Of a stretch of 64,000 nucleotides of DNA, positions 7,785-25,300 are shown one piece after another. The stretch's first letter is position 1. Each line of letters starts with the position of its first letter. Location: positions 744,001 through 808,000 of the forward strand of contig CAUYUJ010000001.1 of NCBI GenBank assembly GCA_963575745.1, written 5' to 3'. The notes under the pieces were generated by a model that did no database searches, was not told the origin of the DNA, and was given only the letters and a program-made list of their open reading frames with translations. A program made the position numbers and the translations under genes. Origin of the DNA: Prorocentrum cordatum. Lineage: Eukaryota.

Positions 7785-10564
7785 GCCTCTCTCTCTCTCT
7801 CGTTCTCTATCTCTGTCTACTCAATCCGCCCCTCCTCCTCCTGCCTATCCTGCCCACCTCTCCCCATCAGCACCCCTATCCCTAATCTACGCACCTCTTT
7901 CCTCCCTCCACCCCTTATTCCCGCCCGATCCGTTCCTGCTGGAGCCCCTGGTATCACTGCACCAGGCCGCCTGAGGACCGTATCGAAGGTGGCCTCCTGG
8001 TGATTCTTCTCCGCCTTGGCCCCGTCATGAGTGATCGTTCCGTCGAGGATGCGTTGGGCGACGTCCTTGCACCAGGCCATGGACGCCACCTCCCCCTCTG
8101 CCCATGTGTCGGCGAAGTACTGGCAGGGATCTGAGCGCAACACATATCCTCCTCATGTTGTCCCTCGTTCTCCTCCTCTTCTCCCTCCTACTTCCCTTTC
8201 TCACCCAGCCTCCCTCCTCTTCCCCCATCCCCCTTCTCTCTTAAGAGTCCTACTATTTCCTTATATCGAACATATCATCATCGTTTTCGATAGGGGTCGG
8301 TTTTCGTTGACCCCCGAGCTCCAGCACGTCAATCTGGAAGATCTGCAGGCCATTCTTCTTGACGGAGCACAGGCGGATCTTCCTCTTGAACTTCGGTGCC
8401 TCCCACCTGGGCTCGACGTTGCGCCCTCCTCTTCCACCTCCTCCCCCTCCTCCTCCTCCTCCTCCTCTTCATCATCCGTCCCCTCCTCCTCCTCTTCATC
8501 CTTCTCCTCCTCCTCCTCCTCCTCCCCCTCCTCCTCGGTTGCCCGTTTCGACTCGGGTCGGTCGGTTGTTGCCATGCTGCGTTTTTCTGGGCTCTGGGTC
8601 GGGCGATTGATTGTTTCGCCCAAGTGCCTGAAAGAAACGGAGATCACGTTATCGTCGGCATCGGTGGCGGACCACTTCATCCAATCGGGGAGTTTAGCTT
8701 TCGCTTTGGCTTTGCCTTTTGCTGCATGTTTAGCTGTGGGCTCTGGCGCTGCTCGCTCCTCGGGGGCCGCCGCGGCTGCGGCCTCCTGCTGGCCCTTGGC
8801 CTTCTGCCACGCCATGATGATCGCCTGGGGGCAGCGCGAGCGCAATGGGATGCAGAAGGATAGACGACGAGGCGACCAGGGCCATTCAGGAATTGAGGAA
8901 GACAATGATGGGATGAAGGAGAGGGTAAGGGAGGGTGGGAGGGAGGGGGGGCGCCCCCCGCACATTTTAAGGGGACTGGTCTCCCCAAATTACCCCGCTG
9001 TTCGAGGGGGGCCAGTCGCCCAATGTTCAATGGGATTGGCCCCCTAAAACGGCGGGGCATTTCGGGGGGACCAGTCTCCATCAAATGCACCGCTGTTTTG
9101 ACGACCCTGGGCCCCAAATTAAAAGGATGCGTCGCCTGCGGGACCTCCTTCCTCGTCGAATCCGACCACCACACTGCTTCCATGCAATCGGTCGGCTTGC
9201 TACCCTTCGGGATCACCATCTCATCGCAATATTCAGGGTCGGTCTGTCTGTCGGCGATCTCGATTCGGTACGCCCTCAAGGACTCTTTGTCGTAACTGTA
9301 CGTGTACATGAGGGCCGAGGTGCCTGGCGGCGGGGCGGGGGACCCCTGTTCTCTTCTTCTCGTCGCAGTCCTCTCCTTGCCTTTTTATCGTCCTCCTAGT
9401 CCTCGCCTTGCTGCCGCTAACTCCTCCTGTCCTGGCCAACTCCTCCCCCTGTCCCGGCCAACTCCTCCTCCTCCTCCTCCTCCTCCTCCTCCTCCTCCTC
9501 CTCCTCCTCCTCCTCTTCCTCCTCGCCATCCTCTTCCTCCTCCTCCTCATCCTACCGCGCCCCCGTTCGCTGTCGACTCGCCGCGTCGCCTGTTCTGCTG
9601 TCTGCTGGCTCGTCCTCTTCGCCACCATCATCATCATCATCATCATGCTGATCTCCGCCAGCGCTGTCATCGTCATCATGAGCTGCGGCGGGCCGCTTGG
9701 CAGCGACAGGAAACGTGCCTCTGCCGCTGCCTCTGCCGCTGCCTCTGCCGCTGCTGCTGCCTCTGCCGCTGGCATTCGTGCCAGCGCCGCCAGCCCAGCT
9801 CGCCAGCGCAGGCTGGCGCATCTCCTTCTCATTCTCCTCATCGCCGTCACCCTCCTTGAACAGCTTGAGGTACCACTTCGGCGGTCGACTGACGGCCGCT
9901 CGTTTTCGATTGCAGTTTTTCACGTGGCCCGATCGTCGAGTGTCGATCGTCGATCTCGATCTCCACCTTCGATCTCCCTCAAAATCGTTTTCGGTTTCGT
10001 TGCCGTCGATCGTCGATCTCCCTCCTCCCCCCTCACTCCTTCTCTCCCCCCCCCTTTCTCCTTCCCCTCCTTCCTGAGTCGATCCGCAGATCAGCCCAAA
10101 AAGTCAGGGCTCCTGCGGAGCTTGATGCAGTGCGTCATCAGGCACCGAACCCTCTTGCCGTTCTCTGCCTTCCAGTCCTCCATCTCGTGCTCGGCGAGCG
10201 GAAACCTGGCTGCGCGGGCACGGGGGCGCTCGGGGGCGACGACGACGAGGGGGGGCGAAGGATCGGCGAGAGGGGGAGGAGGAGGAGGAGGAGGAGGAAG
10301 AGGAGGAGGAGGCTCGGGAGGAGGAAGAGGTCGAGGAGCAGGAAAGAAAGAAGGACGAGGAAGAGGAGAGAGGGCGGGGGGCATCGCCTCCTGTCATCCG
10401 CCACTTGCTCGATCGCCCTCTCGAGGGCCGTCGGCTGCAAGCTCAAGGTCGGAGCGATGGCTGCTATCGCTTTCCGCGCCCCCTTTGAAAAGAGCCCTAG
10501 CGAATGCAAGCGAGGTAGCTTCCCCTCTATCCTTCTCTCTCTCTCTCTCACTCTCCCCCTTTTG

Positions 10565-10595
<31 letters not shown>

Positions 10596-10635
10596 GTTTT
10601 ATCGTCTCTGTGGTATTCCTTTACCTCTCTCTCAT

Positions 10636-10666
<31 letters not shown>

Positions 10667-10735
10667 TCCATCCTCCTTCTCCTCATCGTCTCGCCCTCCC
10701 CCTCCTCCTCCTCCCTCGCCTCTCTCGCTCTATCC

Positions 10736-10788
<53 letters not shown>

Positions 10789-10793
10789 CCTCA

Positions 10794-10863
<70 letters not shown>

Positions 10864-11081
10864 TTCTCTCTCCCTCTCTCCGGGGGCGCGGCTCCCGCGA
10901 CAGCGTTTCGGTTGATGAGCGGCACGAGCGTTCTCATCAGCTCGGGCCTGGGTTTGTGCCGTCGAGCGTTGTTCGGGTAATTTATGAAATTGACCTTGCT
11001 GATGATCGGATGCATTGCGTTCCGAATGGCAGCTACGTCTGAAAAACGTGGATGGTCGGTCGCCTTCTGCTGTGGAGGCAT
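7023..11081 (-). CDS. Multi-exon protein of unknown function with MKRPAA repeats (putative transposon accessory gene)
   Basis: ATG at 11081 (MPPQQKATDHPRF). Successive coding-like exons are separated by (GA)n/(GAG)n introns: KAIAAIAPTLSL, FPLAEHEMEDWKAENGKRVRCL, PPKWYLKLF, YTYSYDKESLRAYR...EAVWWSD...EVPQAT, LPDWMKW, EVASMAWCKDVAQRILDG, and a final exon with MKRPAA x3 ending at 7023. Boundaries approximate. Confidence 0.65.
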
Positions 11082-11469
11082 ACACGGAATATGAACTCGC
11101 ACGCCCTGGGCCACAGGGCTGCGCAGCGGCGCGAGAGCACGAGCAGCAGAATGGGGAAAGAAGAAAAGTCGGGAGGGAGGGGGCGAGGGTGAGAAGGCCG
11201 GTGGGAGGATGCCCAGGAAGGGGCGGGCGGGCGGGGGGAGAGGGGGGTACAGTCGGGGCGCTGCTTTTTTCGTTGGGGAGGGGCTCGGTGTTCCTTGCTT
11301 GTTTTTAAAGTTTTCCTAAGGTGTTCCCTCGGTTTTCGTTGGGGAGTCGAAGTTTAACTTCTTGGGGAAAGGGGCCTCGTCCCTTATTTTTAGTTCCTTA
11401 GATCAACGCCCCGACGGTAGAGGGAAAGGGAGGGGGAGAGAGAGACCGTGAGACACGAACGAATCCGCA

Positions 11470-11800
11470 CGTACATGTATGTGTAACAATATTTAACACG
11501 ATATGTACACGTAAACATTCAATTGCGAACATGTGTGTGTTTACTATTATTGGTAGTATTGTCATTAATATTATTCACATATATATACACCTATTTACAT
11601 ATATATATGTGCATACCATAATTACATACAGTTGCATTCATATATTTTTATATATGTATATGCGTATATATACATATATATATATATATATGAAATTTAG
11701 TTATATATATATGTATACGTATAGTAGTGTACGTATGTGTTTTTATATGTATATATATATGTATACATAAATGTTTATATATATATACATATCTGTGTGT
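11470..11800. repeat. AT-rich degenerate (TA)n/(TATG)n microsatellite
   Basis: Directly visible; sharp drop in GC content. Confidence 0.9.
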
Positions 11801-11924
11801 GTTTAACACGAAACAAACACAAACAACAATGCGCACGAAAAAATGAAAAGACGCAGCGGCCCAGCGAAAACACGCAATTATTATCATATACGTCCCGCCC
11901 ACGATCAAGAGTCGCAACGACCCT

Positions 11925-14900
11925 GTGGGGAGCTTGCCGAAGGGCGCCGAGCTTGTCCAGCTGTTCGCCTGCGCCTGGCTGCTGTGGGAGGGCGGCGCGC
12001 GCCTCCCCGCGCTGGGCGCCACTCACGTGCATCGGCACTGCAGGGGGTCGGCCGTCAGCAACGGTGCGATCATCAAGGTGTCCTCCTACTCCTCCGCCTA
12101 CTCCGAGGTCTTCGCGGGCGCTCTGGGGCTAGCATGGTACCGGGCCCTCCGCGATCGCTTCGGCGGGCGGGCTTCAGGAGCCTTCGTCGAGTTCGCGGAC
12201 TCCGACTTCGCGCGCGGCGAGCGGGAGGCTTTCGAGGTGCCGGACGTCCTCGGGGCGATCACCAGCATGCGGGCTCCGGCTTCTGAGCAGGCATGCTCCA
12301 TCGGGCGCGTGGCACGCGCCCCGGAGCGCGGCGCTGCAGCCTTCGACGCGGAGGTGGCGGACGGGCGCAAGCTGGAGGACGCCGACATCGCCATCAGGGA
12401 GGAGTACGCCGCGAAGGTGCGGGGCTGCGAGCCTGAGGCGGGGAGCGAGCCGTTCGAGCTGTCCAAGTCGCTTCGTGCCCACATCATCGGGGATCAGTGG
12501 AAGGATGAGGATCTCGGGCCTATCTGCATGCAGCTTCGCGCCGAGTCTGGCGCCGGCGATAGCCCCGAGGCGCAGCGTCTCGGCGAGGACTTCGCGCTCG
12601 AGCAGTTCGCGACCGTGGGCCCAGGGGAGCAGCGCTGGCTGCTAGTCCTCCCTGCGTCGGGCGGACCGGGCTCGGGCATATCGTGGAGGCGCTTCATCTT
12701 CCTCCGTGTTCATGCTGGTCCGTCGGGGGGCCACAAGACGGTGGTCGCCACTCGTGAGTGCGCCCGGCGGCTGGTGGTCTGGCCGGGGCTCGCGGCGGAC
12801 ATCGAGAAGTGGTGCGCTAGCTGTTGGGCCTGCCTCCGATTCAGGAAGCAGACTACGAAGGTTCAGGCCAGCTTCATCGTGGCACGGCACCGGCTTCCAT
12901 TTCATCATGTGGTCATCGACGTGGAGGGCCGCATCACCCCCCCCGACGTCGACGGGTTCGCGTACGTGCTGACCTACATCTGTGTGACGACGGGGGCCCC
13001 CCTTCTCGAGCCGCTCAAGCACCTGCAGCACTCCGAGGTTCGTCGCGCCTTCTTTCGATGCGCGACTCGGGCCAAGACCTGGCCGATGCTGGTGAGTTCG
13101 GATCGTGGCAAGGAGTTCTGCAACGCTCTCATGGAAGAGCTCTGGGCGCTCCTCAACTTCGCAGGCCGCTTCGGCACGTCGTGGAGGCCCTGCGAGCAGG
13201 CGGACGCGGAGCGGTCCCACATCGAGTGCGCGAGGGAGATCGGCATCTTCCTGCACGACGTCTTTAAGTGTGCCCCCGGCCAGTGGGCCGAGCTGCTGCC
13301 GATCGTCGAGTTCGTGCTGTGGAACTCGCCCGGCAAGTCGGCGCTGTCGCCGAGGGACCTCTGCATGGGTTGGTCGTTGGCTTCGCCGCTGGAGAGGGAG
13401 CTGCTGCCGCTGGAGCCCGCCGTTCGCGAGGCAGTCTCCGACGTCGCGGCGGCACAGTTTGAGCAGTTCAGGCGTTTGCGGGAGGTTTACCTTCAGCATC
13501 GGGCTCGAGCCGGCCGGCGCAGGGCGGAGCTGGCTAATCGCACGAGATCGTCGAGGCGCCCGGAGGTCGGGGACATGGTGTTGTTCAAGGACCCGAAGCT
13601 CTCCAAGGCCGTGGCCGGGCACGCTCCGGGCCGCCGCCCTCTGCGCGGCCCCTTCGAGGTCCTCTCCACGAAGGGCAACGTCGCCACGTTGCGGGACCCC
13701 GAGACCCGGCAGGTGCTCAAGGATATCCACGGCGATTTCTTGATCGGCGTCCCGGGCTTGGTCGACGACACGGAGCGCATCGTGAAGTTGGAGGAGGACG
13801 ACGGCCGTGGCAGGGCCTCTGCCGGACAGCTGCTGGCAGCGCGGCTGGCCCCTGGAGGCGGCGAGGCCGCCGAGGCGCTGGCGCCGCGCGTGAAGGCGCG
13901 GATGCGAGAAGTGAAGGTCGGGCGGCTCGTGGCCTACCAGGGCGAGGAGGCGAAGCGCTGCCGGGTGGGCAAGGTGCTGAGCCTGGCCGAGGACCTGAGC
14001 AGCGTGACGGTGCACGTGTACCAGGCGGCGGTCGACGGACGGCTGCAGGTGGTCTGGACAGCGGCGTACGACCGCCAGGAGGGCGCGGACTTCCAGCGGC
14101 AGAGGGTCGAGACGCTGGAGGCGAAGCGGGTGCTGGGTGTCGTGGAGCTCAACAAGGGCGTGCTGAACCACGCGGCGGCGAGCAGACTGGCGCGGGCCGG
14201 CTGGCGGCTGGACGAGGGGACCGTCCGGCGCGGTGCCTTGGCGGCGGCGGCAGTGGTGCCGGCCGCGCCACGGCTCTCCGACCTCCCTTCGAGCCGCGTC
14301 ATCGCGCTCGTCGCAGCTTGCCGTCCGCTCGAGGAGCTCGACCTGAAGATCGGCGAGGTCCAGGCGTGGGCGCACGGCGTCCCCCTCTTCGTGGAGATCT
14401 TCGATGGGGTCGGGAGGCTCTCGCAGGCGGTCCAGAGCTTAGGCGCAGCCAACGCGGTGTGCAGCGTGGTGGCCGGCATCGACCTTAAGCGCAGGACGTA
14501 CGGGCAGTACTGGGACCTCAGCAGGGCCAAGGACCGCGCCCGGCTTCGCTACCTGCTCTTCGAGGTGCTGAGGCCGGCAGGAGCCCACTGGGCGCTCCCC
14601 TGTGCGAAGTGGAGCAGCCTCGGTGGCCACCAGCCCGACGCCAACGCGCACGCGCTAGCTTCTTTCACCATGGACGGCCTCGAGCACCTCGACGGCGCGG
14701 GCTGCCTGGCCTCCTTCGAGGGCCCTCGTGCGCACGCGCTGGTGGCGAGCGTGGAGTGGCAGCAACGGTTCGGGTCAGCCGAGGCGCCGCGCGGGCGCTG
14801 GCGGCACGTGCTCCCCGACGGCTGCATGTTCCACTGCAGGAGCCCGGACGAGGAGCCCTTGGCCATGCAGAAGCCGTACGTCATCGTGGGCAACTTCCCG

Positions 14901-17761
14901 CTGGACCTGCTGGACGTTCAGTGCCGCCGTGGAGCGCTGCGGCCTCTAGGGCGCGGCCTCGAAGGCGTCGAGGTCGCCTCCGTGGAGCAGCGCGGCGACG
15001 CCGGGAGCTCCATGATCGGAGCCGCGCGAGCGCTGGAGGGGCCTCGCATGCCCTGCGAGCCGGGACGCGCGGCCGCTCCGGCTGCTGGGGTGACTAGGTC
15101 GGTGGACAAGCTGAGCGACGCCGAGATGGCGGAAAGGAAGGCGCGGCGCGAGCCAGCGGCGGCGGCGGCGAAGAAGAAGTGGGCCGAGCTGGCCAAGAAG
15201 GGTGACTGGGACCAGGTTCGGATGCCCGGCAAGTGCTTCAGGTTTGCCGAGGTGAAGATTTCGCCGAGGCGCTCGGCGGAGTACAAGGCCAAGGTTCTGG
15301 AGGCGGTCGGGCTCGTCGGCGAGTGCGCGGGCTACAAGCACCTGGGCAGCCAGGAGCTGGAGGCGCTGAAGGAGATGATCAGCCTGAAGGCCGAGGCGTT
15401 CTGGGTGAAGGGCACCGCGCGGACGGTCATGCGCGGCTTCAAGCACGACGTGGTGACGACTGGCTTGCCTGCGCGCGGGCCGCCGATCCGCTTGAAGGGC
15501 CCGGAGTCTTCCATCGTCCGCGAGGAGCTCGAGGCGGGCGTGGAGCAGGGGCTGTACTCCCGGGGGACTTCGCCCTGGGGCAGCTGGGCCTTTCCGACCA
15601 AGGAGCACGCGAGCGGCCGAAGGCGTCGGACCGTCGTGGACTACCGGATGGTCAACCGCAGGATGGTGATGTTCGTGTACTACATCCGCCGGTGCCGAGA
15701 CGTCAAGGGCGAGCTGGTGGGCTGCGCCTTCATCTCTGGCATGGACGGCGCTCGCGGCTTCAACCTCCTGGTCAACACTGAGCACGCGAAGGAGGTCCTG
15801 GCTGTGCTGGCGGACTGCGGCTGCTACCTCCCCGAGGTGCTGCAGCTGGGGCCAGCGACGGGGCCCTTCGACTTCCAGTTCTGCACCGACGAGCTGTTCA
15901 CTGGCACTGGCCGCGGACGCTACGGATCGGTCTGGAAGAATTACATCGACGACTTCTGGGTCAGGACGGGGCAGTGGCTGAACGGTCGCGCCTACACCGA
16001 CCGAGAGTACGAGGAGATGCTGGCGGCGGCATCCCCCCCCCCGGCTGCCTCTCGCCCGCTGGGCGACTCGCTGGCAGCGGCCGGGTTCGCGGGGACTCGC
16101 AAGGCCAGCCAGAGCTACGACCACGCCAAGGGCATGCTCGTGGGGCTGTGCGTGGCGCAGTCGGCCACGGGAGCAGCGGCTATGGAGGGCGGCGGCGTTG
16201 CCTTGGCGAACGGCCTCCGCATGCTGGTGGTGGCTGCCGCGGTGCGCACGGCGTCCTTGGTGGATGAGGGGCTGCGCGCGGGCGTGCAGCTGACGCGGGA
16301 CATCTTCGAGGCGGCCGGCGACCTGGTCCAGAGCGTCTCCTGGAACCTCAGCGGGCTCATCCACGAGGTGTGCGAGGGGGCGGTCCTGGTGGTGCGCGTC
16401 CTGGTCGTCGTGCAGTGCTGCTACGCTCTTTACTGCCTGCGCTCGTGGGTGGCTTGCCGTGCGCAGCGGGCGGCGCTGGAGCGCGCCGCCACCGCCGGCG
16501 AGGCGGCTCAGCGCGGACTCACGTCCAGCGCGCGAACCTGCGAGGCCGGCGACGGGCCCGCCTTCGGCCGCGAGCCGATGGCCAGAGCGGCAGCCGCTGG
16601 CAGGAGCCCGAGCGGGGCCATCTCGTCAGCAGATGGCGCCGCCAGCCCTGTGGTGGCGCTGTGGCGCGAGGCGGAGTTCGAGACCCCCCTGATCGGGGCG
16701 GCGGCACGCCCCCGAGCGGAGGTCCTCCAGATCCAGAGGAGCGCAGCTGTGGCACTGCGGGACCTGGAGCATTCGGACCGCCAGCGCACCGCGCGCGCGC
16801 GCGCGACCTGGCCGCCTGCGGCGCGGTGGTGTCCGCGAAGCTGGTGGAGGCTGCGCGCAGCACGGCGGCGAAGGACGCGGGCGACCTGTGCGAGTTCGAG
16901 GTTGAGGTGGCCGGCAGCCGCGGCGTGCGGTATGATGTGCGACTTCGCGCCGGACGCTTGGCTGCAGCGTTGCCCCCCGCATCGTGCACCTGCGCGGACT
17001 TCGTCAGCGGCGTTGGCGCCCCCTGCAAGCACATTGGGGCGGCCTGGTGCTGCGCGGTGGACGGCAACTTCAGCGAGCTGGTGGAGCTGGCGCTTGCGGC
17101 TGGCCGCAAGGAAGGAGCTGCCGCTGGACCTCAGCGACGCGCAGCCCTGGCGCCGAGCGACTCCCTGGGCCTCGCGGGGGCCGTGCGGGAGCTCCGCGAC
17201 TCGGAGGCCGAGGTCGTTCGCCTGCGCGAGGAGGTCCAGCAGCTGAAGGCGCAGCTGGGGGTGGCCTCCAGGCGCGGAGCCGTGACCGAGTTCCTCTCAG
17301 CGTCGGAGACGCTGGCGGCTTGGGCGCGGGCTTGCGGCGAGGCCGAGAGCTACGTGCACGTTGCGTGTTTCACCTTCGACCAGCCGGGCGTGGTGAACTA
17401 TCTGGAGGCGGCTCGAGCTCGAGGTCTCACCGTCCGTTTGGTGTTCAGCGGCCGTGACAAGGCCTTGACCAACAACCAGGGACCGCGCCTGCAGCGGCTG
17501 CGAGCCTGTGGGTGCGAGGTGCGCGCGCACAAGGGCTCGCGGCTGCACGCAAAGGTGATGATGACAGAGCGCGAGATCGCGCTGGGCAGCTGCAACTTCA
17601 CGACTGCCAGCTTGGGCAACGCGGAGCGCGGAGCGTCGTTGCAGGAGCTGTCCGAGGAGGCGGTGCTCGAGCAGAAGGAGTGGTTCGAGCAGCTGTTCGA
17701 GGCGGCGGCGCCCTTCAAGGACGGGATCGGCGAGGTGGTGCCTCCGTCGCCGGCCCGGTGA
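11925..17761 (+). CDS. Retroelement polyprotein INT-SH3-DNMT-RT-TM-SWIM-PLD (frameshift at 16791-16805)
   Basis: ORFs 11925..17246 and 16370..17761 fuse into 1944 aa (...QRTARAR|DLAACGAVVSAK...) if one GC unit is removed from the (GC)n run. Confidence 0.8.
12640..13750 (+). other. Gypsy-type integrase (HHCC Zn finger, DD35E core, GPY/F)
   Basis: VHAGPSGGH...WPGLAADIEKWCASCWAC; VIDVEG, SSDRGKEF and AERSH with exactly 35 residues between D and E; VGDMVL...RGPFEV. Confidence 0.92.
14381..14930 (+). other. C5-cytosine DNA methyltransferase-like domain
   Basis: FVEIFDGVG (motif I FxGxG), GID/WDL, ALPC (catalytic PC), FEGP (motif VI variant), DGCMF...QKP (motif VIII-like). Motifs IX/X not recognised. 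Confidence 0.7.
15390..15970 (+). other. Ty3/Gypsy-type reverse transcriptase, fingers/palm only
   Basis: HDVVT...GLYSRGTSPWGS...RTVVDYRMVN...FISGMDGARGF...LQLGPATGPFDFQ...NYIDD (YIDD at 15942-15953). Confidence 0.9.
16806..17060 (+). other. SWIM zinc finger
   Basis: VEVAGSRGVRYDVRL...SCTCADFVSGVGAPCKHIGA = CxC-x10-CxH with the usual upstream V.GS..Y.V strands. Confidence 0.85.
17281..17761 (+). other. Phospholipase-D-superfamily (Nuc/Zucchini-like) single-HKD nuclease domain
   Basis: VHVACFTFDQPGVVNYLEAARARGLTVRLV...LHAKVMMTE...LGSCNFT...NAE; HxK(x4)E and GSxN. Confidence 0.85.
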
Positions 17762-17773
17762 GGGCGCCGCGAG

Positions 17774-17983
17774 GCGCTGGAGGTCAGCTGGGCGAGAGGC
17801 CTAGCGGCCGTGGCGCCGGGACCGCGAGGCGCTGGTGGCCAGCTGGGCGAGAGGCCTAGTGGCCGTGGCGCCGAGGGCGAGGCGGCGCTGGAGGCCAGCT
17901 GGGCGAGAGGCCTAGCGGCCGTGGCGCCGAGGGCGAGCAGCGCTGGAGGCAGCTAGGGCGAGGCCCAGCAGCCGTGGCGCTGA
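17774..17983. repeat. ~55-bp tandem repeat, 4 copies
   Basis: GCGCTGGAGGCCAGCTGGGCGAGAGGCCTAGCGGCCGTGGCGCCG units immediately after the PLD stop codon. Confidence 0.9.
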
Positions 17984-18430
17984 GATGGCAAGAGCGTGGC
18001 ATTTTGCTACGCCGTCGACGCCCGGCAGCGCCGGGAGCTATGAGCGACTGCATGACGCCGAGTTCGGCGACTTCGAGGAGTTCATCAACTTCAATTTTGT
18101 GGAGGTGCACGTCGCGGTGGACGTGCCGGAGCGCCTGTGCCGCGGAGTGGTGTCCCGCTCGAGGAGAGGGGCACGTGAGGAGCGGCAAGGGCGCACAGGC
18201 GGCGGTGTGCAGGCCGGCGGCGATGACGGCCCTGGTGGCGACGGCTGCTTGCCCCGCGCTGCCGCGTGGCTCAAGGAGAAAGGGCCCCTCCTCCCCCTCC
18301 TCAGAGGCGCGGGGGAGGCTTGGGGGGCCCGCCTGGGTTCGAGGGCCCGCAGGGGCCCATAGGGCCCGGGGGCGGCACCAGGAGGCCGCTCCCGAGGCCC
18401 TGAGGGGCCGAGGCTCCAGGTGAGCCTCAG

Positions 18431-19046
<616 letters not shown>

Positions 19047-19189
19047 AATTTGCATCATACTAGTAACAATAGTAGTAGTAGTAGCACTAACAACCATCAT
19101 CATCCCAACAGGTCGTAATAGTAGCCGTAATCATACGAATAATATAAACAGCAATAATAAAGATTATATTGTTAATAATAATAAGATGT

Positions 19190-19220
<31 letters not shown>

Positions 19221-19238
19221 GAGGAGGAGGAGGAGGAG

Positions 19239-19585
19239 CAAGGCTCCCAACTGAGAGCGGTGACGTAGCACGCGCCTACCAGCAAGGCTCCCAAGAGCGA
19301 GCGGTGACGCAACAAGCTCTTCCCACCAAGGCTCCCAATGGCGAGCGGCAACGTAAGCATCTCTGGGCACGAGGACTCTGAACAGAGAGCGGTGATGCAA
19401 GAAGCTCTTCCCAGCAAGGGTCCCAACAGAGAGCGGTGACGCAACACTCGCTTACCAGCAAGGCTCCCAAGAACGAGCGGTGACGCAACCAGCTCTTACC
19501 ACCAAGGGTCCCAAGAGCGAAGGGTGCCATGAGCCACCTCGGGTAGGTTGCTAAAGCGCTCTTTCCGTTTCCGTGCCGGCCCAGG
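19239..19585 (+). repeat. 44-bp satellite array with conserved tail, copy 1
   Basis: ~7 units of CAAGGCTCCCAAGAGCGAGCGGTGACG..., ending in GGGTGCCATGAGCC...CCGTGCCGGCCCAGGT. Confidence 0.88.
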
Positions 19586-20159
19586 TAAGGGAAAGAGCGA
19601 GGTACGAGTGAATGACGTAGTAGCGTGGGGCGAAGCCCTCAAGGGGGGAGTGCAGAGGGGGGGAGAGGTCTAGGGGGAACGCTTTAATTGCCGCTTTCGG
19701 GTTTTCCCTCGGGTTTTGCATGTGTTTCTGGTTCTCCCCTTTTCCGTCCCAGGAGGGCCCCAGATGGCCCAAGAGGCCCCAAAGATCGTCACAAAAGGGC
19801 CCCAGAGGCCCTCCAAAGGGGCCCCAAACGGTCCAACAGGGCCCCCAGACGGGCCCAAGACGGCCCAAGAGGCCCCCAAGATCGTCCCAGGACGGCCCCA
19901 GAGGCCCCCCAAAGGAACAGAAAAGATCCAAGAGGGCCTCCAGACGGCCCCAGAGGGACCCAAGAAGGCCCAAGAGGGCCCCAAGACGGCCCAAGAGATC
20001 CCCAAGAGCGCCCCAGGAGGAGGAGGAGGAGGAGGGGGAGGAGGGGGAGGAGGAGGAGGAGGAGGAGGAGGAGGAGGAGGAGGAGGAGGAGGAGGAGGAG
20101 GAGGAGTCAGGAGGAGGAAGGAGGAGGAGGAGGAGGATGAGGAGGAGGAGGAGGAGACG

Positions 20160-20574
20160 TAAGAAGCTCTTCACACCCAGGCTCCCAAGCGCGAAGGTGA
20201 TGTAAAGAGCTCGTCACACCAAGGCTCCCAAGAGCGAGCGTCAACGTAATCATCTCTGAACACCAGGGCTCCCATAGAGAATAGAGAGTGGTGACGTAAC
20301 AAGCTCTTCCCACTAAGGCTCCCAAGAGCGAACAGTGACGTGACAAACTCGTGCACACCAAGGCTCCCAAGAGCGAGCGGTGACGTACACAACTCTCATC
20401 ACCAAGGTTTCCAAGAGCGAGCGGCAACGTAAAAGTTTCGGAACACCAAGGCTCCCAAGAGCGAACGGTGACGTCACAAACTCTTACCACCAGGGCTCCC
20501 AAGAGCGAAGGGTGCCATGAGCCTTCTCGGGCAGGTTGCTGCAGCGCTCTTTCCGTTCCCGTGCCGGCCCAGGT
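20160..20574 (+). repeat. 44-bp satellite array with conserved tail, copy 2
   Basis: ~8 units of the same consensus and the same tail as 19239-19585. Confidence 0.88.
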
Positions 20575-21195
20575 CGGTTTTTCGCCCCAGACCCGCGTTG
20601 CAAGCAAGCACGTCGTCGGAGATCCGGGTGCCTGACCTCCCCTCCCCCCTCCCTCCTGCCGAGGCAGCACTCCGCGGGAGGCCACGATGTTGAGAGCCAG
20701 CGCGGGAAGGGCGGACAAGTTGTCCACTCTGCCCGTGCTTGCCAGTGCCCCTCCTCCCCCGCGGAACCCCGACATAGCGATCTCTTTACAACGTGGACCC
20801 CCCAGATCGTCGGAGTCTGGACGCACTTTCCCACGACCGCCTTCTCGGGCTTCTCGTTCTGAGTCGTTCGCCCCCACGACGCACCTCCCCACGCGGGCCC
20901 CGGGGCCAGCGAGGACCTCCCGAGACAGAGCATCTGCCAAAAACCCGCCGTCGTGCGGCGCGGGGGGGGCCTCCACTGCCGCGAGCGGCCCCCCCAGTGG
21001 GCGCCACCCTCCTCTCCCGGAGGAGCCCCAAGCCAGCGGCCCAGCCCCTTGCTTCGGCGAGTGGCTCCTCGAGGCGCGCTCGCGCGAGCGCGCGCGGTGC
21101 AGCAGAACCGGCGCTCTTTCGCCGCCGCCCGCCGCCGCGGTCGTCCCAGGTTTCCTCGGCATGATTTCTCCGGTCCTCCGACTCAGAGATCCGAG

Positions 21196-21351
21196 GATAT
21201 GATTTTTCAATCCGGCGGTTTTTCCTTTAGTTCGGTTTCTGGGGCCCGTTATCGGGCCTGCATGTGGGCCATCAAAAATTGATCTGGGACGAAAAAACAC
21301 CCCGGGGAAGGAGTCGGGACCTCTGGGGCCGCCGGTTGAAAAAATCATATC
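21196..21351. mobile_element. MITE with ~23-bp TIRs
   Basis: GATATGATTTTTCAATCCGGCGG ... CCGCCGGTTGAAAAAATCATATC; related internal sequence at ~61920-62035. Confidence 0.7.
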
Positions 21352-21961
21352 GGCAGAGGTCTGGGTAGTAGAAGAAGATGCCGATCCCGCTGCTCCTCCT
21401 GGAGAGCCTTAGCGGTCATAGCCACGGCTTGATCTTCCTCAGGAATCTGGTCAGAGCGCACCGTCCGCGAGAGGTCCCGGGGGTAGCAGTGTCCCGTCGT
21501 GGCCAACCGTTCTCGAAGCGAGGCGGCCCCCTGGGGGCAGGAATTCATGATGATAATGATACGTTCTAGGATTTCCAGAATTACCTTGATTTCCGAGCAG
21601 AAGAAGCACTCCATTTCGCAAGCTTCTGGAAGTTCTCGTTGGTCCCCGGAGGTTACCTCGCCTCGGGGTGCTTTCAAGCAGCTTGGTCTTCGCCGAAGGA
21701 GCGGTCCGGGCATGCCCGGATCGCGCCGAGCGGCCGCCAGTGGCCCCGAGCTCCGGCCTGTTGGCCCAGGCCTTCGACGGTACAATTCCTACAGCCTGGG
21801 CGTCTGAGCGCGTTTCCTCGACTTCGGCATCTGGGGCCCTCCCGGCTGGCCCCGCGGGGCCCTCACGAGCGGTTCCGGGCGGAAGACTGGCCCCCGGGAG
21901 AGGTTTTGGGACAGCTGAGACCGCGCATTGAAAAAGTTGCATTGTCGAATGTTTGGGGTCA

Positions 21962-22077
<116 letters not shown>

Positions 22078-22333
22078 TTCATCGTGCTCGTCGTGGCCGT
22101 GGCCAGGGAGGGAGAGGGGAGGAAGAGGGGGGTAGTCAGGAGAGAAAGGGAGGAAAAGCAGGGGAAGAAAGAGGATGGGGTGGGAGGACGGAGGCGACGA
22201 CGGCGACGACGACCACGACGTTGACGACGTTGAGGACGCTGATGACGTTGCGACCACCACCACCAACCGCCTCTGCCCGCAAACCACCAACACGCCTCCG
22301 CTCGCACCACCTCGGCGGCCCCGCTGCCTGCAG

Positions 22334-25300
22334 GGGTCCTGCGCGGCGGCGCTCGACGCTGCCGCCCCCCCCCCCTCCGCCGAGGGAGACCACCGCAAGG
22401 GGGGCTCCCCCGCCCACGGTGGCCCCGCCGGCATCCTCGGTGGCGACGGCGCCGACGTCCTCACGACGACGCTGACGACATGGACGGCGACGACCGACTA
22501 CCGCCTCCGGCGCGCGGCGGCGCCGAAGGCATCCGACGATGTGGTTTGTCAAGTGCGCGGCCCCGGAGGCCCCGCCCCAGGCCCGCTTCTGATACCCCCC
22601 AGGGGCCCACGACGGGCCCACGGAGGCCGGAATAGGGGACAAACGCCCGGGTAGACCAAAGCAGGGGGAACGGGAAGGGGGAAGGCGGGGAAGGGAGCGG
22701 GAGAGGGAAGCGCAGGCGAGGGGAGGAGTCGGGGAAACGTAGGACCCGAGTTCGCCAGAACTCGGGCTTGCCTACGCTGGTTGACGTTGGCGGTCCAATT
22801 GTCGTGGGACGTTTGCGGCAGGAGCTCGCGTCAAACTGCCAAATTTCAGACTGGGTCTCGTCATTTTTCTGACGGCCCCCTCGGGCCAGCTCGAGTCCTC
22901 CAAACTCGAGCCTTCGGTCCCCAGAAGAGGAGGAGGATAATAATCTGATTCTCCACAGTCCGCACGTTTCGGCCAGCAGGTGGCTGATTTAGTGATTTTC
23001 CCGAAGGGCAGAAAAGAACTCATAAACACAAGCCTTCGGAGCTCCGCGCAGATTTCTTGGCCCTGCGCTGGACCCCCCTCCCTGGCGAGCGGAGCGCGCC
23101 AGGGACGGCGCTGGAGTCGCTGCGTCCAGCGCCGACCCAAGAAATCCTCGCGGAGGTTCGAAAGCTTATGCTTATGAGCTGTTCGCCCCGTGCGAGGATC
23201 CCGGGATCGACCACCTGCTCGTCGGAAGGCGTGGATGGTGGCGCGTCAGGGTTCCGATTGGGGATGGGGGAGAAGATCGGAGGAGCAAGAAGTCATGATA
23301 GTGGAACGTTCCAAGGTTTCAAGGATTCCCCAGACGTCTTAGTTTTCCGCACGGGCTGCAGAAACGAGGGCCGCTGGATATAGACCCTATGATCTGACGT
23401 TGCGAACAAAAATGAAGCATCGCAACAGAGAAAGAGCGTGTTCTACCGCTGCTGGCGGAAAACCGGGGGGGGTCACTACCGGTTCGAACCCCTCCCCCCC
23501 CCACCCCCCTCCAGAAAACCGGGGGGGGTCACTACCGGTTCGAACCCCTCCCCCCCCCCCCAGCTCATCATGAAAAGGGGGGGGGGTCACTACCGGTTCG
23601 AACCCCCCCCCCCCCTCGAAAACCGAGTGGGGGTGCGGACAGAGGTGGGGACGGTGTTGGTGGGACAGTGGTGAGGGGACAGCGGGACAGTGGTGGGGAC
23701 AGTGGGACAGTGGGACAGTAGAGGGCCGGTAGTGGTGGGGACAGTGGTGGGGACAATGGTGGGAACAGGGGGGACAGTGGACAGTGGTGGGGACGGTGGT
23801 GGTGGGGACAGTGGTGTGGGCACAGTGGGAATGAGGTGGAAACAGTGGGACAGTGGAGGGTACAATGGTGGTGGGGACAGTGGTGAAGGCGGTGGCGAGG
23901 ACGGCGGTGGGACAATGGGACAGAGGTACAGTGGGGACAGTGGTGGGGACAGTGGGGACAGTGGTGGGAACAGTGGGACAGCTCAGTGGGACAGCGGCGG
24001 AGTCAGTGGGACAGTGGGGACAGTGGGGATAGTCGGGCAGTGGTTGGGGCCGTGGAGACAGTGGGGAGAGTGGAACCGTGGTGGGAACAGTGGTGGGGAC
24101 AGTGGGGACAGTGCGACAGTGGTGGGGGCACTGGTGGGGACACAGTGGGGACAGTGGTGGTGAGGACAGTGGTGCTGGGAACAACAGTGGAGGATGTGAT
24201 GCGGACGGTGGTAGGGACCGGGAGTCGTTTGCTGGCGGTGAGTGGGGGGGTGGGGAGGGGTTCGAACCGGTAGTGATCCCCCTCCGGTTTTCGAGGGGAG
24301 GGGGGGGGGGTTCGAACCGGTAGTGACCCCCCCGGTTTTCCGGATCCGAGGGGGGGGGGGGAGGGGGGGAGGGGGGGGGGGGGAGGGGTTCCAGCAGGGG
24401 GGGGGGGGGATTTTCGGGGGGGTGGGGGGGGGGAACGACCCCCGGGCTCCGGAGGAAAAGGTTGGCAATTTTCCACAGTAAAGCGGCGGTGGATCACGCT
24501 CTCTCGATTATCGCCAGCCCTGGACCCCATCTTCCTGCGTCAGTTTTCGAGCCAGATCGATATGTGAGGGTCGTGGGACCAGAAACTTGGCGAAAACGCT
24601 TTTTGTTAGAAATACAACGCCAGGATCTCGTCGGATGGGGCTAAGACGAGGAGATGTCCGTTCCACAGCGTTCCGGAACGCTCCCAGAGCGTTCCAGAAC
24701 GCTCTGAGAATACCGCGGCGCCCGAGACATCCTCCAGAGCCGCCGGGTCTCAGAGATCCTCCATGTGTCTTCACCCGCTGCTGTCCTCGTCCTGGCTCCG
24801 TCTCGTCTCGGGGGAAGGACCCCCCGGACGGCCGCCGAGGGCCTCGCCTCCCGACGGGCCTTCGGCGCGCCGGCGGCGGTCCCCACGCAGCCGCCCGCCT
24901 CGAGGTGGTCCGCGCCCCGGGCACCTGCCCGACGGTGCGCGGGCAGGCGGTGGGCGCGCTGAGGACCGGCGCTGCTGCGCGCCTCCCCTCCTCCTCCTCC
25001 TCCTCCTCCTCCTCCTCCTCCTCCTCCTCCTCCTCCTCCCTCCTCCTCCTCCTCCTCCTCCTCCTCCTCCTCCTCCTCCTCCTCCTCCCCCCTCCTCCTC
25101 CTCCTTCTGCTCCTCCTCCTCCTCCTCCTCCTCCTCCACCTCCTCCTCCTCCTCCTCCTCCTCCTCCTCCTCCTCCCCGGGAGGGCCTTGTCGTTCGTCC
25201 TGCTGGGGACAACCTCGGCCACGCGCAGCAGGGGGGGTAATTATTAGGGGGAGAGGGGGAGGCTGCTTGGAAGCACCCTGCTTCTTAGAGGGCGCGGGCC

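What the first reader, a model, noticed from the sequence alone, without database searches (positions are those of the whole stretch)
11925..17761. Gypsy-like retroelement carrying both a cytosine methyltransferase and a SWIM-PLD nuclease module
Seen: one reading frame, after a 2-nt repair, holds an intact DD35E integrase, a C5-MTase-like domain, RT, a hydrophobic segment, a SWIM finger, a coiled coil and a single-HKD PLD domain. Established: DNMT capture by dinoflagellate retrotransposons has been reported in Symbiodinium. Single-HKD PLD proteins include nucleases such as Nuc, Zucchini and the restriction enzyme BfiI. I know of no LTR-type element with TM-SWIM-PLD. Inference: the MTase plus nuclease pair could act like a restriction-modification or addiction module that marks self cDNA, or the PLD could be a membrane-anchored Zucchini-like RNase or a substitute for RNase H.
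Basis: partly seen in the sequence, partly recalled or inferred. Interest (0 to 1): 0.92.

Follow-up and report, generated by a model that had tools for sequence, protein, structure and literature searches.

The report
Dinoflagellate retroelement with methylase-like and PLD-nuclease domains
This is a broken, front-truncated copy of a previously undescribed family of dinoflagellate retroelements whose giant polyprotein joins an integrase and a reverse transcriptase to a cytosine-methylase-like domain and a zinc-finger/PLD nuclease, a combination not reported for any retroelement.

Summary
In window 11932-17761 (+) one reading frame carries these parts in order:
- an H2C2/DDE integrase with an intact D,D35E triad
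- a roughly 200-aa Rossmann domain whose best fold matches are C5-cytosine methyltransferases
- a reverse-transcriptase fingers/palm with conserved D...YxDD
- two hydrophobic helices
- a SWIM finger
- a coiled coil
- a single-HKD PLD domain

The frame is broken once, by one extra CG in a (CG)8 run at 16790-16805. A 97%-identical paralogue and contigs from four public runs lack those 2 nt.

The organism is Prorocentrum cordatum. The same order recurs in independent proteins and contigs at 32-97% identity. SWIM and PLD show dN/dS of about 0.2-0.3. This rules out a one-off chimera or misassembly.

The copy is 5'-truncated at 11932, and no LTRs were found. Longer relatives carry a Ty3-type RNase H upstream of the integrase, which argues against the PLD standing in for RNase H.

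The methylase-like domain fails Pfam's DNMT threshold and lacks a target-recognition domain. It therefore differs from the known Symbiodinium DNMT elements.

The PLD is most likely a coiled-coil homodimeric Nuc/Zucchini-type nuclease. Its biological role is inferred, not shown. The restriction-modification reading is untested.

The parts
11932..18275 (+). Extent of the retroelement copy in the window. It is 5'-truncated and runs 3' past the stop codon.
   Evidence: tblastn of relatives starts at 11937. Contigs of 3 runs match from 11932 on and continue upstream with a different, shared sequence. Contigs of 2 runs diverge after 18275. No upstream part of the family was found elsewhere in the window.
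11937..12686 (+). Conserved region of unknown function upstream of the integrase
   Evidence: Aligns to P0007 from aa 974 on. No credible Pfam family.
12687..12848 (+). Integrase zinc-binding domain (H2C2)
   Evidence: PF17921, E 5.5e-11, aa 281-334. H, H, C and C invariant in 8 of 8 sequences.
12897..13211 (+). Integrase catalytic core with D358, D419 and E455 (D,D35E)
   Evidence: PF00665, E 4.2e-6, below the cut-off. The triad is invariant in 8 of 8 sequences.
13212..14321 (+). Integrase C-terminal region and a conserved spacer with no family hit
   Evidence: Aligned with P0007, P0008 and P0021. No Pfam hit.
14322..14966 (+). C5-cytosine-methyltransferase-like Rossmann domain without a target-recognition domain. 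Motifs are F-x-G-x-G, P-C and E-G-P.
   Evidence: A profile search found 414 representatives at E<=1e-3. P93, C94 and E133 are nearly invariant in 40 sequences. The AF2 model has pLDDT 83.2. Fold matches: M.HaeIII Z 10.6, M.HhaI 10.4, DNMT3A 10.2; the top 4 of 48,161 chains are C5-MTases, tied within 1 Z with other Rossmann folds. PF00145 is sub-threshold in 4 of 40 relatives.
15207..16106 (+). Reverse transcriptase fingers/palm (core motifs 15570-15962; YIDD at aa 1366). No thumb or RNase H follows.
   Evidence: blastp to the gypsy RT of P0009 gives 1e-15. Profile against PDB: 8r0s 4e-7, Ty3 RT 0.0019. D180 and Y-x-D-D are invariant in 6 of 6 sequences. dN/dS 0.08 against L001.
16188..16457 (+). 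Two hydrophobic helices (aa 1448-1466 and 1501-1537), a likely membrane hairpin
   Evidence: Kyte-Doolittle, 19-aa window, peaks 1.55 and 2.28. Two such segments precede SWIM in 6 of 7 family sequences.
16790..16805 (+). (CG)8 microsatellite holding the 2-nt insertion that shifts the frame
   Evidence: '2 left out at 16790' in 4 of 4 runs. P0004 and P0160 read through.
16934..17044 (+). SWIM zinc finger (C-x-C-x11-C-x-H)
   Evidence: PF04434, E 3.4e-4, 20.5 bits against 19.6. Stronger in relatives, down to 9e-7. Conserved in the alignment. dN/dS 0.29.
17162..17272 (+). Coiled coil ahead of the PLD domain
   Evidence: In the predicted homodimer, residues 2-44 touch their own counterparts (11, 14, 21, 25, 28).
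17336..17695 (+). Single-HKD PLD (Nuc/Zucchini-type) domain. Motif HAKVMMTE...GSCNFT at 17546-17602.
   Evidence: PF13091, E 1.8e-13. PDB: MitoPLD 4ggj 1.8e-6, Nuc 1byr 2.4e-3. H-A-K, G-S-x-N and E-x-G are invariant in 11 of 11 sequences. dN/dS 0.20-0.25. DrmC and MkoB hits.
17759..17761 (+). Stop codon after the conserved C-terminus ...GIGEVVPPSPAR
   Evidence: The same C-terminal motif ends 9 of 11 aligned relatives.
17773..17984 (+). 55-bp tandem repeat (3.9 copies) in the 3' untranslated part shared with other copies
   Evidence: P0004 and contigs align through 17964-18275.

Best explanation
Window 11932 to about 18275 (+) is a 5'-truncated, recently disabled copy of a multi-copy retroelement family. 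The family occurs in Prorocentrum cordatum and in other, unnamed marine protists.

The family encodes one giant polyprotein. In longer relatives it starts with a Ty3-type RT-thumb/RNase H piece. The remaining parts are present here, in this order:
- an H2C2/DDE integrase
- a spacer
- a TRD-less C5-methyltransferase-like domain
- an RT fingers/palm
- a hydrophobic hairpin
- a SWIM finger
- a coiled coil
- a single-HKD PLD domain, at which the protein ends

The only lesion in the open frame is one extra CG unit in a (CG)8 run.

Shown:
- the domain identities
- their fixed order across lineages
- conserved catalytic residues of the integrase, RT and PLD
- purifying selection on RT, SWIM and PLD

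Inferred:
- The PLD works as a coiled-coil-held homodimer that builds one Nuc/Zucchini-type, metal-independent phosphodiesterase site from two HKD motifs. It is placed on nucleic acid by the SWIM finger and tethered to a membrane by the hairpin.
- My preferred role is cutting or end-processing of the element's own RNA/cDNA intermediates, at about 0.35. Target nicking is second, at about 0.2.
- The methylase-like domain probably binds SAM and keeps the Cys/Glu chemistry. With no recognition domain, its substrate (cDNA, RNA or none) is open.
For: Organism and paralogues: P0003/P0004/P0005 are named Prorocentrum cordatum.

Architecture in independent sequences:
- P0004, 97% identity, continuous through the shift
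- P0006, 52%: X-RT-TM-SWIM-CC-PLD
- P0008, 32%: IN-X-RT-Tpt1-ZnF-SWIM-PLD
- P0007, 42%: RH-like...IN-X-RT
- P0160/L001, 63-70%: RT-TM-SWIM-CC-PLD
- L006: RNase H-IN-X-RT-TM-SWIM, with the PLD starting at the contig end
- L012 and L013: open frames of 2585 and 3311 aa

The X domain has 414 representative relatives.

Selection:
- Of the 40 substitutions listed out of 328 between the window and other copies, 31 fall on codon position 3, 7 on position 1 and 2 on position 2 (my count on the table).
- Nei-Gojobori dN/dS against L001 is 0.08 for RT, 0.29 for SWIM and 0.20-0.25 for PLD.

Decay typical of mobile DNA:
- frameshifts at different places in the window, L001, L002 and L006
- degenerate P0005, P0161 and P0162

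PLD:
- Pfam 1.8e-13
- MitoPLD 1.8e-6 and Nuc 2.4e-3
- H, K, G-S-x-N invariant in 11 of 11 sequences
- Homodimer prediction scores 0.80 against a best control of 0.00. The runs agree in at least 91% of contacts and partner pLDDT is at least 85. The interface holds the HKD residues and a parallel coiled coil. The mark was reached by 21 of 30 proteins solved as pairs and by 0 of 23 solved as single chains. Because Nuc and Zucchini dimers are solved, the pass may be from memory.
Against: - No LTR, target-site duplication, Gag or protease was found. The element class and its termini are therefore not defined.
- No whole genome is held, so copy number is unknown.
- The methylase-like call rests on fold matches at Z 9.3-10.6. 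These are tied within 1 Z with an SDR at 9.0 and FtsJ at 8.9. It also rests on sub-threshold Pfam hits.
- dS is 0.75-1.04, near saturation.
- Both compared copies are themselves frameshifted.
- The PLD's Asp of 'HKD' is Glu here.
- Nothing here shows what the PLD cuts, whether the hairpin enters a membrane, or whether the polyprotein is processed.
- L012 and L013 do not reach a SWIM-PLD before a gap or the contig end, so universality across the family is not shown.
Confidence: 0.7

Rival explanations
1. RT-SWIM-PLD is a target-primed reverse-transcription block. The PLD nicks chromosomal DNA and the adjacent RT extends from the nick, as in non-LTR and Penelope-like elements, where a zinc finger and a nuclease follow the RT.
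For: The order RT, then Zn finger, then nuclease resembles R2 and Penelope (recalled, not tested). The window copy is 5'-truncated with an intact 3' end and no LTR. PLD nucleases include DNA endonucleases: the Nuc hit and the DrmC hit.
Against: An intact integrase under selection is kept in all lineages. Hydrophobic helices separate the RT from the nuclease. One truncated copy is not a pattern. The loose ends include 3'-side breaks as well.
Confidence: 0.18
2. One reading: the methylase-like domain and the PLD form a restriction-modification or addiction-like pair. Own cDNA is marked and unmarked DNA is cut.
For: Both domains travel together in every lineage that reaches the 3' end. The PLD hits DISARM DrmC at 4e-8 and Mokosh MkoB at 6e-9. 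DISARM pairs a methylase with DrmC (recalled).
Against: The methylase-like domain has no target-recognition domain and no motif VIII arginines. It gives no PADLOC hit. The DrmC similarity is generic PLDc_2 similarity. There are no methylation data.
Confidence: 0.1
3. The PLD replaces a missing RNase H.
For: No RNase H lies in the window copy, and none follows the RT palm.
Against: Relatives carry a Ty3-type RNase H upstream of the integrase: L006, PF17917, 3.7e-8, above the cut-off; L012, PF17919, 0.0064; P0007 against Ty3 RT/RH 4ol8, 0.021. The window copy simply lacks that 5' part.
Confidence: 0.04
4. Chimera or misassembly: a retroelement fragment joined by chance to a host SWIM-PLD gene.
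For: Gene models in this genome do fuse neighbours. P0004 runs on into a KH-domain gene, and P0005 joins a tyrosine-recombinase element.
Against: The same junction and order occur in at least 6 independent sequences from different sources at 32-97% identity, with a conserved C-terminus. No free-standing SWIM-PLD relative was found among 12 short hits, all of them contig fragments of the same family.
Confidence: 0.02
5. A domesticated host gene family derived from a retroelement, no longer mobile.
For: Strong purifying selection. No termini were found.
Against: Several copies per genome with independent frameshifts and truncations. Different flanks lie at 11932 and 18275.
Confidence: 0.05

Closest known systems
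Ty3/gypsy (Metaviridae) LTR retrotransposons
   Same: H2C2 zinc-binding domain plus DDE integrase. The RT is closest to caulimovirus and Ty3 RTs. Relatives carry a Ty3-type RNase H.
   Different: No LTR, Gag or protease was found. The RT palm lies downstream of the integrase, whereas the thumb/RNase H-like piece of relatives lies upstream. Four extra modules are present: the MTase-like domain, the hydrophobic hairpin, SWIM and PLD.
DNMT-bearing retrotransposons: SymbioLINE-Dnmt, SymbioDIRS-Dnmt3, KnitGypsy-Dnmt3 (PMC5890265, passages read)
   Same: A retroelement polyprotein that carries a C5-methyltransferase-type domain, and a dinoflagellate host.
   Different: Those elements have bona fide PF00145 domains with all key residues, and they use an AP endonuclease or a tyrosine recombinase (KnitGypsy is in a charophyte). 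Here the domain fails PF00145, lacks a TRD, and sits with a DDE integrase and a PLD. The words PLD and SWIM occur 0 times in that paper.
Zucchini/MitoPLD and bacterial Nuc (single-HKD PLD nucleases)
   Same: One HKD motif. Best solved sequence relatives are 4ggj at 1.8e-6 and 1byr at 2.4e-3. A homodimer with the HKD at the interface is predicted. Hydrophobic helices lie N-terminal, as with Zucchini's membrane anchor (the anchor is recalled).
   Different: Here it is the C-terminal domain of a retroelement polyprotein, preceded by SWIM and a coiled coil. HKD reads H-x-K-x4-E. The substrate is unknown.
DISARM (DrmMII C5-methylase + DrmC PLD nuclease)
   Same: A methylase-type domain and a PLD nuclease in one system. 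DrmC profile hits at 4e-8.
   Different: DISARM is a prokaryotic multi-gene defence system with a helicase. Here the parts form a eukaryotic single polyprotein with RT and integrase. The methylase-like part gives no PADLOC hit.
R2 and Penelope-like elements (RT followed by zinc finger and endonuclease; recalled)
   Same: The order RT, then zinc finger, then nuclease at the C-terminus.
   Different: The nuclease is PLD rather than PD-(D/E)xK or GIY-YIG. A membrane hairpin intervenes. An integrase is also present.

Membership tests
Ty3/gypsy LTR retrotransposon | Flanking long terminal repeats | tested here: inconclusive
   No direct repeat other than low-complexity DNA in 8000-24000. The copy is 5'-truncated, so a 5' LTR could not be present.
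Ty3/gypsy LTR retrotransposon | pol order PR-RT-RNase H-IN | tested here: not met
   The integrase (12471-13313) precedes the RT palm (15225-15962). In relatives RNase H precedes the integrase and the RT palm follows it.
Ty3/gypsy LTR retrotransposon | H2C2 + DDE integrase | tested here: met
   PF17921, 5.5e-11. The D,D35E triad is invariant in 8 of 8 sequences.
Ty3/gypsy LTR retrotransposon | RT of the Ty3/caulimovirus/retrovirus group with catalytic D...YxDD | tested here: met
   RVT_1 itself stays below its cut-off: 0.33 here, 1e-4 in L012.
Ty3/gypsy LTR retrotransposon | Gag and aspartic protease | tested here: inconclusive
   None found in the window or in P0007, L012 or L013 by Pfam. The 5' ends of all sequences are cut.
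C5 cytosine methyltransferase (PF00145) | Profile match above the curated threshold | tested here: not met
   No hit for the window segment. 4 of 40 relatives hit at 0.0069-0.25, all below 22 bits and colinear with profile positions 2-98.
C5 cytosine methyltransferase (PF00145) | Motif I (FxGxG), motif IV (PC) and motif VI (ENV) | tested here: met
   F-D-G-V-G, L-P-C and F-E-G-P here (E-N-P in most relatives). P93, C94 and E133 are nearly invariant in 40 sequences. Their equivalence to the enzyme motifs is inferred from colinear ranges, not from residue pairs.
C5 cytosine methyltransferase (PF00145) | Motif VIII arginines, target-recognition domain, motifs IX-X | tested here: not met
   The domain ends about 70 aa after motif VI. 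Fold alignments cover only M.HhaI residues 10-191 and DNMT3A 630-810.
C5 cytosine methyltransferase (PF00145) | Fold of the catalytic domain | tested here: inconclusive
   C5-MTases rank first: Z 10.6 with rmsd 3.2 over 152 aa, and the top 4 of 48,161 chains. An SDR at 9.0 and FtsJ at 8.9 are within 1 Z.
C5 cytosine methyltransferase (PF00145) | SAM-dependent methyl transfer | not testable with these tools
   Needs an enzyme assay.
PLD superfamily, single-HKD nucleases (PF13091) | Profile match above the threshold | tested here: met
   50.9 bits against 27.
PLD superfamily, single-HKD nucleases (PF13091) | H-x-K and G-S-x-N catalytic motif | tested here: met
   Invariant in 11 of 11 sequences. 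The Asp of HKD is Glu here, Asp in P0006 and absent in P0008.
PLD superfamily, single-HKD nucleases (PF13091) | Homodimer forming one active site | tested here: met
   Prediction only: score 0.80 against a best control of 0.00, with the HKD at the interface. The pass may reflect solved Nuc and Zucchini dimers.
PLD superfamily, single-HKD nucleases (PF13091) | Nucleic-acid rather than lipid substrate | not testable with these tools
   The nearest relatives are nucleases, but no assay was possible.
SWIM zinc finger (PF04434) | CxCxnCxH signature and profile match | tested here: met
   C-T-C-x11-C-K-H. 20.5 bits against 19.6 here, and 26-29 bits in P0160 and P0163.
Symbiodinium DNMT retrotransposons | Bona fide DNMT with an AP endonuclease (LINE) or a tyrosine recombinase (DIRS) | tested here: not met
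   No PF00145, PF03372 or PF00589 hit. A DDE integrase is present instead. Definition taken from PMC5890265.

The most novel reading that the evidence does not exclude
This could be a new class of retroelement of dinoflagellates and related protists, defined by two features.
- Its polymerase is split around the integrase: the thumb/RNase H lies upstream and the fingers/palm downstream.
- It carries its own nucleic-acid marking and cutting kit: a TRD-less C5-methylase-like domain, in one lineage a Tpt1 RNA 2'-phosphotransferase, and a membrane-tethered SWIM-PLD nuclease.

The kit would serve one of two ends: a second, integrase-independent insertion route, or a self/non-self system acting on cDNA in a genome with heavily modified DNA.
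Probability: 0.2. Interest if true: 0.9.

Novelty: new variant of a known kind. Interest (0 to 1): 0.75.

Why it matters
Retroelements are classified by the nuclease or recombinase that inserts them: DDE integrase, AP endonuclease, restriction-like nuclease, GIY-YIG or tyrosine recombinase. A PLD-family nuclease has not been reported in that role or as an accessory in the papers I could search.

Dinoflagellate genomes are huge and shaped by retroposition. They carry unusual DNA modifications, yet their mobile elements are barely described.

This family is widespread and under selection. It couples RT and integrase to a methylase-like domain and a PLD nuclease. That gives a concrete, testable entry into how mobile elements cope with, or exploit, such genomes. 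It also offers new small enzymes to characterise: a minimal C5-MTase-like fold and a SWIM-guided PLD.

Tried and rejected
Searches and tools that gave nothing:
- Own-genome search: no genome is held, so no copy count or full-length copies in P. cordatum.
- LTR search in 8000-24000: only low-complexity repeats.
- Spliced-leader motif (recalled 21-mer, up to 3 mismatches): 0 matches.
- Pfam on the segments before the integrase, between the integrase and X, after the RT, and on L006's RNase H-to-integrase region: nothing credible.
- Upstream part of the family elsewhere in the window: none.
- Viral-contig scan: 0 relatives.
- No RNA holder listed among sequencing runs, so nothing can be said on expression.
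- Cluster-member look-up for source names: database switched off. The host range of the relatives is therefore unknown beyond 'marine/freshwater/estuary metagenome' labels, which I did not pursue.
- Atlas look-up of the window's own X segment: not held. P0008 was too long. Homologue P0028 gave leads to clusters carrying PF00145 at TM 0.43-0.44, and to one named 'cytosine-5-methyltransferase family'. These are leads only.

Analyses that failed or stayed inconclusive:
- AlphaFold of RT plus the following region: pLDDT 39.8, unusable. Whether the RT palm has its own thumb therefore stays open.
- L012 and L013 do not reach SWIM-PLD. L012 has Ns and its contig ends; L013 ends in acidic low-complexity sequence. 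This is neither support for nor evidence against universality.
- The run depths cannot give copy number.
- I could not decide whether the extra CG is a real mutation or an assembly error. The contigs covering 16790 are 3-6% diverged copies, not this locus.

Literature:
- Searches for a PLD/SWIM-bearing retroelement and word searches in four papers found none.
- Supplements were not consulted.
Full report
What is in the sequence

Between 11847 and 17761 on the + strand there are two long open frames. ORF A (11847-17246, 1799 codons) and ORF B (16268-17761, 497 codons) overlap and differ by -1. The surrounding DNA is 60-73% G+C with many microsatellites.

Pfam finds four domains:
- an integrase zinc-binding domain (aa 281-334, E 5.5e-11)
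- an integrase core (aa 351-450, 4.2e-6, below the curated cut-off)
- in ORB B's frame (ORF B), a SWIM finger (3.4e-4, just above its cut-off)
- a PLD-like domain (1.8e-13)

The frames meet in a (CG)8 run at 16790-16805. Frame A reads ...DRQRTARARATW and frame B reads RDLAACGAVV from 16802. A 97%-identical paralogue, P0004, reads ...QRAARARDLAACGAV... without a break. Contigs from all 4 public runs laid on the region lack exactly 2 nt at 16790. The '2-nt repair' is therefore real and has a simple cause, microsatellite slippage. Those contigs are 3-6% diverged copies, so I cannot tell whether the extra CG is a mutation of this copy or an assembly error.

Organism and family

The window's own protein and two paralogues are labelled Prorocentrum cordatum, a dinoflagellate. 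No whole genome is held for it.

Relatives found by protein search share the same order of parts:
- P0006 (52% identity): partial X, RT, hydrophobic region, SWIM, coiled coil, PLD
- P0008 (32%): integrase, X, RT, a Tpt1 RNA 2'-phosphotransferase, RanBP zinc fingers, SWIM, PLD
- P0007 (42%): an upstream region, integrase, X, RT, then cut by its contig end
- P0160 (63% over the SWIM-PLD part): RT through PLD

Contig scans gave 11 metagenome loci and 2 loci from bins labelled bacterial. Among these:
- L001 repeats RT-TM-SWIM-PLD.
- L006 (8.2 kb) reads RNase H, integrase, X, RT, hydrophobic helices, SWIM and the first part of PLD at its end.
- L012 is an open frame of 2585 aa and L013 one of 3311 aa.

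A search restricted to short proteins found only contig fragments of the same family, with no free-standing SWIM-PLD gene. The module is an integral, conserved part. L012 and L013 stop short of where it would lie and say nothing either way.

The individual domains

Integrase. H..H..C..C and D358, D419, E455 are invariant in 8 of 8 aligned sequences, including a canonical gypsy polyprotein.

RT. Pfam is weak here (E 0.33), but three results support it:
- The segment matches the RT of canonical gypsy P0009 at 1e-15.
- A six-sequence profile hits solved RTs: 8r0s at 4e-7, Ty3 at 0.0019, and foamy-virus PR-RT.
- The motif A Asp and Y-x-D-D are invariant.

What follows YIDD has no recognisable thumb or RNase H. 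My attempt to fold it failed (pLDDT 39.8).

Methylase-like segment (14322-14966). It has no Pfam or PDB sequence hit. A three-sequence profile found 414 representative relatives at E<=1e-3 among 1.84 billion proteins, most of them short fragments. In a 40-sequence alignment W64, P85, H89, P93, C94, E133, P135 and G151 are nearly invariant. These give F-x-G-x-G, P-C and E-(N/G)-P in the order of C5-methyltransferase motifs I, IV and VI.

The AlphaFold model is confident (pLDDT 83.2, pTM 0.80). Its structural matches are:
- Foldseek's best hits are DNMT3B, DNMT2, DNMT3A and M.HhaI, at E about 2e-4 and TM 0.4-0.5.
- Re-alignment gives M.HaeIII Z 10.6 (rmsd 3.2, 152 aa), M.HhaI 10.4 and DNMT3A 10.2. 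48 of the 50 rows are C5-MTases.
- An independent scan of 48,161 chains again puts four C5-MTases first (Z 9.3-9.6). An SDR at 9.0 and FtsJ at 8.9 are tied within 1 Z.

Four of 40 relatives give sub-threshold PF00145 hits, colinear with profile positions 2-98. An Atlas look-up of a homologue points the same way, as a lead only.

The alignments cover only the first 180 or so residues of the enzymes (M.HhaI 10-191). There is no target-recognition domain and there are no motif VIII arginines. 'C5-MTase-like' is thus a fair description. Membership of the DNMT family is not established.

Hydrophobic region. Two segments (aa 1448-1466 and aa 1501-1537, peak hydropathy 2.28) precede SWIM. Two such segments are found at the same place in 6 of 7 family sequences.

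PLD. H-A-K, G-S-x-N and E-x-G are invariant in 11 of 11 sequences. The nearest solved sequences are mouse and another MitoPLD/Zucchini (1.8e-6, 6e-6), Nuc (2.4e-3) and NucT. Defence-system profiles DrmC, MkoB and DpdK also hit.

A two-copy prediction of the coiled-coil-PLD part scored 0.80 against a best control of 0.00:
- The runs agree in at least 91% of contacts, and partner pLDDT is at least 85.
- The HKD residues and a parallel coiled coil lie in the interface.
- The mark was reached by 21 of 30 proteins solved as pairs and by 0 of 23 solved as single chains.
- Since Nuc and Zucchini dimers are solved, the pass may be from memory.

Selection and decay

One search printed 40 of the 328 differences between the window and related contigs. 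Of these, 31 are at third codon positions of ORF A, 7 at first and 2 at second (my count).

| Segment | dN/dS against L001 |
|---|---|
| Linker plus RT | 0.08 |
| Hydrophobic region | 0.37 |
| SWIM | 0.29 |
| Coiled coil plus PLD | 0.25 |
| Last 150 PLD codons | 0.20 |

dS is 0.75-1.04, close to saturation.

Against this background many copies are broken. The window, L001, L002 and L006 have frameshifts at different places, and P0005, P0161 and P0162 are degenerate. This is the pattern of a mobile family, not of a host gene.

Ends of the copy

Homology to relatives starts at 11937. In three runs, contigs that match from 11932 on continue upstream with one shared, coding-like sequence that the window does not have. 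The window instead has an A+T-rich, apparently high-copy stretch at 11400-11930.

No upstream part of the family lies elsewhere in the window. The copy is 5'-truncated. At the 3' side, P0004 and contigs follow the window to about 18275, through a 55-bp tandem repeat. No LTR was found.

What the missing 5' part holds in relatives

- L006 has a Ty3-type RNase H above Pfam's cut-off (PF17917, 3.7e-8) about 740 residues before its integrase.
- L012 has PF17919 at 0.0064.
- A segment of P0007 aligns only with Ty3 RT/RNase H among all solved chains (4ol8 residues 243-475, E 0.021).
- L012 and P0007 align over their whole length.

No RT fingers/palm was detected upstream of that piece in either sequence. 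Detection is weak for this family in general. It is therefore possible, but not shown, that the polymerase is split around the integrase.

How it likely works

Shown:
- a conserved polyprotein with catalytically intact integrase, RT palm and PLD
- a conserved Cys/Glu-bearing methylase-like fold
- a conserved hairpin and SWIM finger

Inferred: the PLD acts as a coiled-coil-held homodimeric phosphodiesterase of the Nuc/Zucchini type. The SWIM finger places it on nucleic acid, and the hairpin tethers it to a membrane.

Its role is open. I favour cutting or end-processing of the element's own RNA/cDNA intermediates, at about 0.35. Two observations fit that:
- a sister lineage adds a Tpt1 RNA-end enzyme at the same place
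- the Zucchini-like anchor-plus-dimer layout

Target nicking for RT priming comes second, at about 0.2. The restriction-modification idea rests on analogy only. The RNase H-substitute idea is weakened by the upstream RNase H of relatives.

Comparison with what is known

The Symbiodinium DNMT elements are LINE and DIRS elements with bona fide DNMT domains. KnitGypsy-Dnmt3 is a charophyte gypsy element (PMC5890265, passages read). A 2026 preprint on adenine-methylase retrotransposons mentions neither PLD nor SWIM (abstract and passages).

An opinion paper on accessory domains of retrotransposon polyproteins names the chromodomain, the DnaQ-like exonuclease, helicases and methylases, but no PLD (passages). 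A review of dinoflagellate genomics names no such element (passages).

Three full-text searches for PLD/SWIM with retrotransposon terms found nothing relevant. Within those limits the family is undescribed.

Verdict

I rate this a new variant of a known kind: a Ty3/gypsy-related retroelement with a rearranged pol and novel accessory modules. Interest is 0.75.

Noticed in passing
window 11400-11930: An A+T-rich stretch, including an (AT)n run at 11640-11792, abuts the truncated 5' end of the element. It is unlike the 60-73% G+C surroundings and has high summed contig depth in runs X1 and X5. It may be a separate high-copy repeat.
   Followed up: partly
window 17773-17984: A 55-bp tandem repeat (3.9 copies, 87% matches) sits directly after the polyprotein stop codon. 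It lies within the part shared with other copies.
   Followed up: partly
window 18434-19045; 19237-19520 and 20156-20514: A 612-bp (ACT)n microsatellite, followed by two arrays of a 44-bp tandem repeat on either side of GGA/AGG runs.
   Followed up: no
window 23458-23619: Three copies, spaced 56-58 bp apart, of a 48-nt unit with G-run and C-run arms around a central ACCGGT-containing core (GAAAACCGGGGGGGGTCACTACCGGTTCGAACCCC...).
   Followed up: no
P0008, P0010, L013 (relatives, not the window): A sister lineage inserts a Tpt1/KptA RNA 2'-phosphotransferase domain between the RT and SWIM-PLD (up to E 7e-27 in L013). P0008 also has RanBP-type zinc fingers there.
   Followed up: partly
P0007 aa 259-500; L012 aa 395-450; L006 ORF1 aa 18-146: In longer relatives a Ty3-type RT-thumb/RNase H piece lies upstream of the integrase, while the RT fingers/palm lies downstream. 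No fingers/palm was detected upstream. The polymerase may be split or permuted.
   Followed up: partly
P0005 aa 1262-1440 (P. cordatum gene model): This gene model joins a tyrosine-recombinase (DIRS-like) element to a copy of this family. Next to the recombinase lies a second, very weakly similar X-like segment (blastp E 0.012-0.76, with F-x-E-L-x-x-G, D-C-K-T-W-S and E-N-P motifs).
   Followed up: partly
family alignment, downstream of the second hydrophobic helix (window about 16548): A short motif G-L-(S/T)-x(4-5)-C-x-(A/E)-G-D-G-P is conserved after the hydrophobic hairpin in the window, P0004, P0160, P0006 and P0163. Its function is unknown, and it may be a processing site.
   Followed up: no
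many X-domain relatives (e.g. P0008, P0021, L006), not the window: Most relatives extend the methylase-like domain by a C...H-x-H-x-x-R-G...W...S-G-x-Y segment, which may bind zinc. The window's lineage and P0007 have lost it.
   Followed up: no
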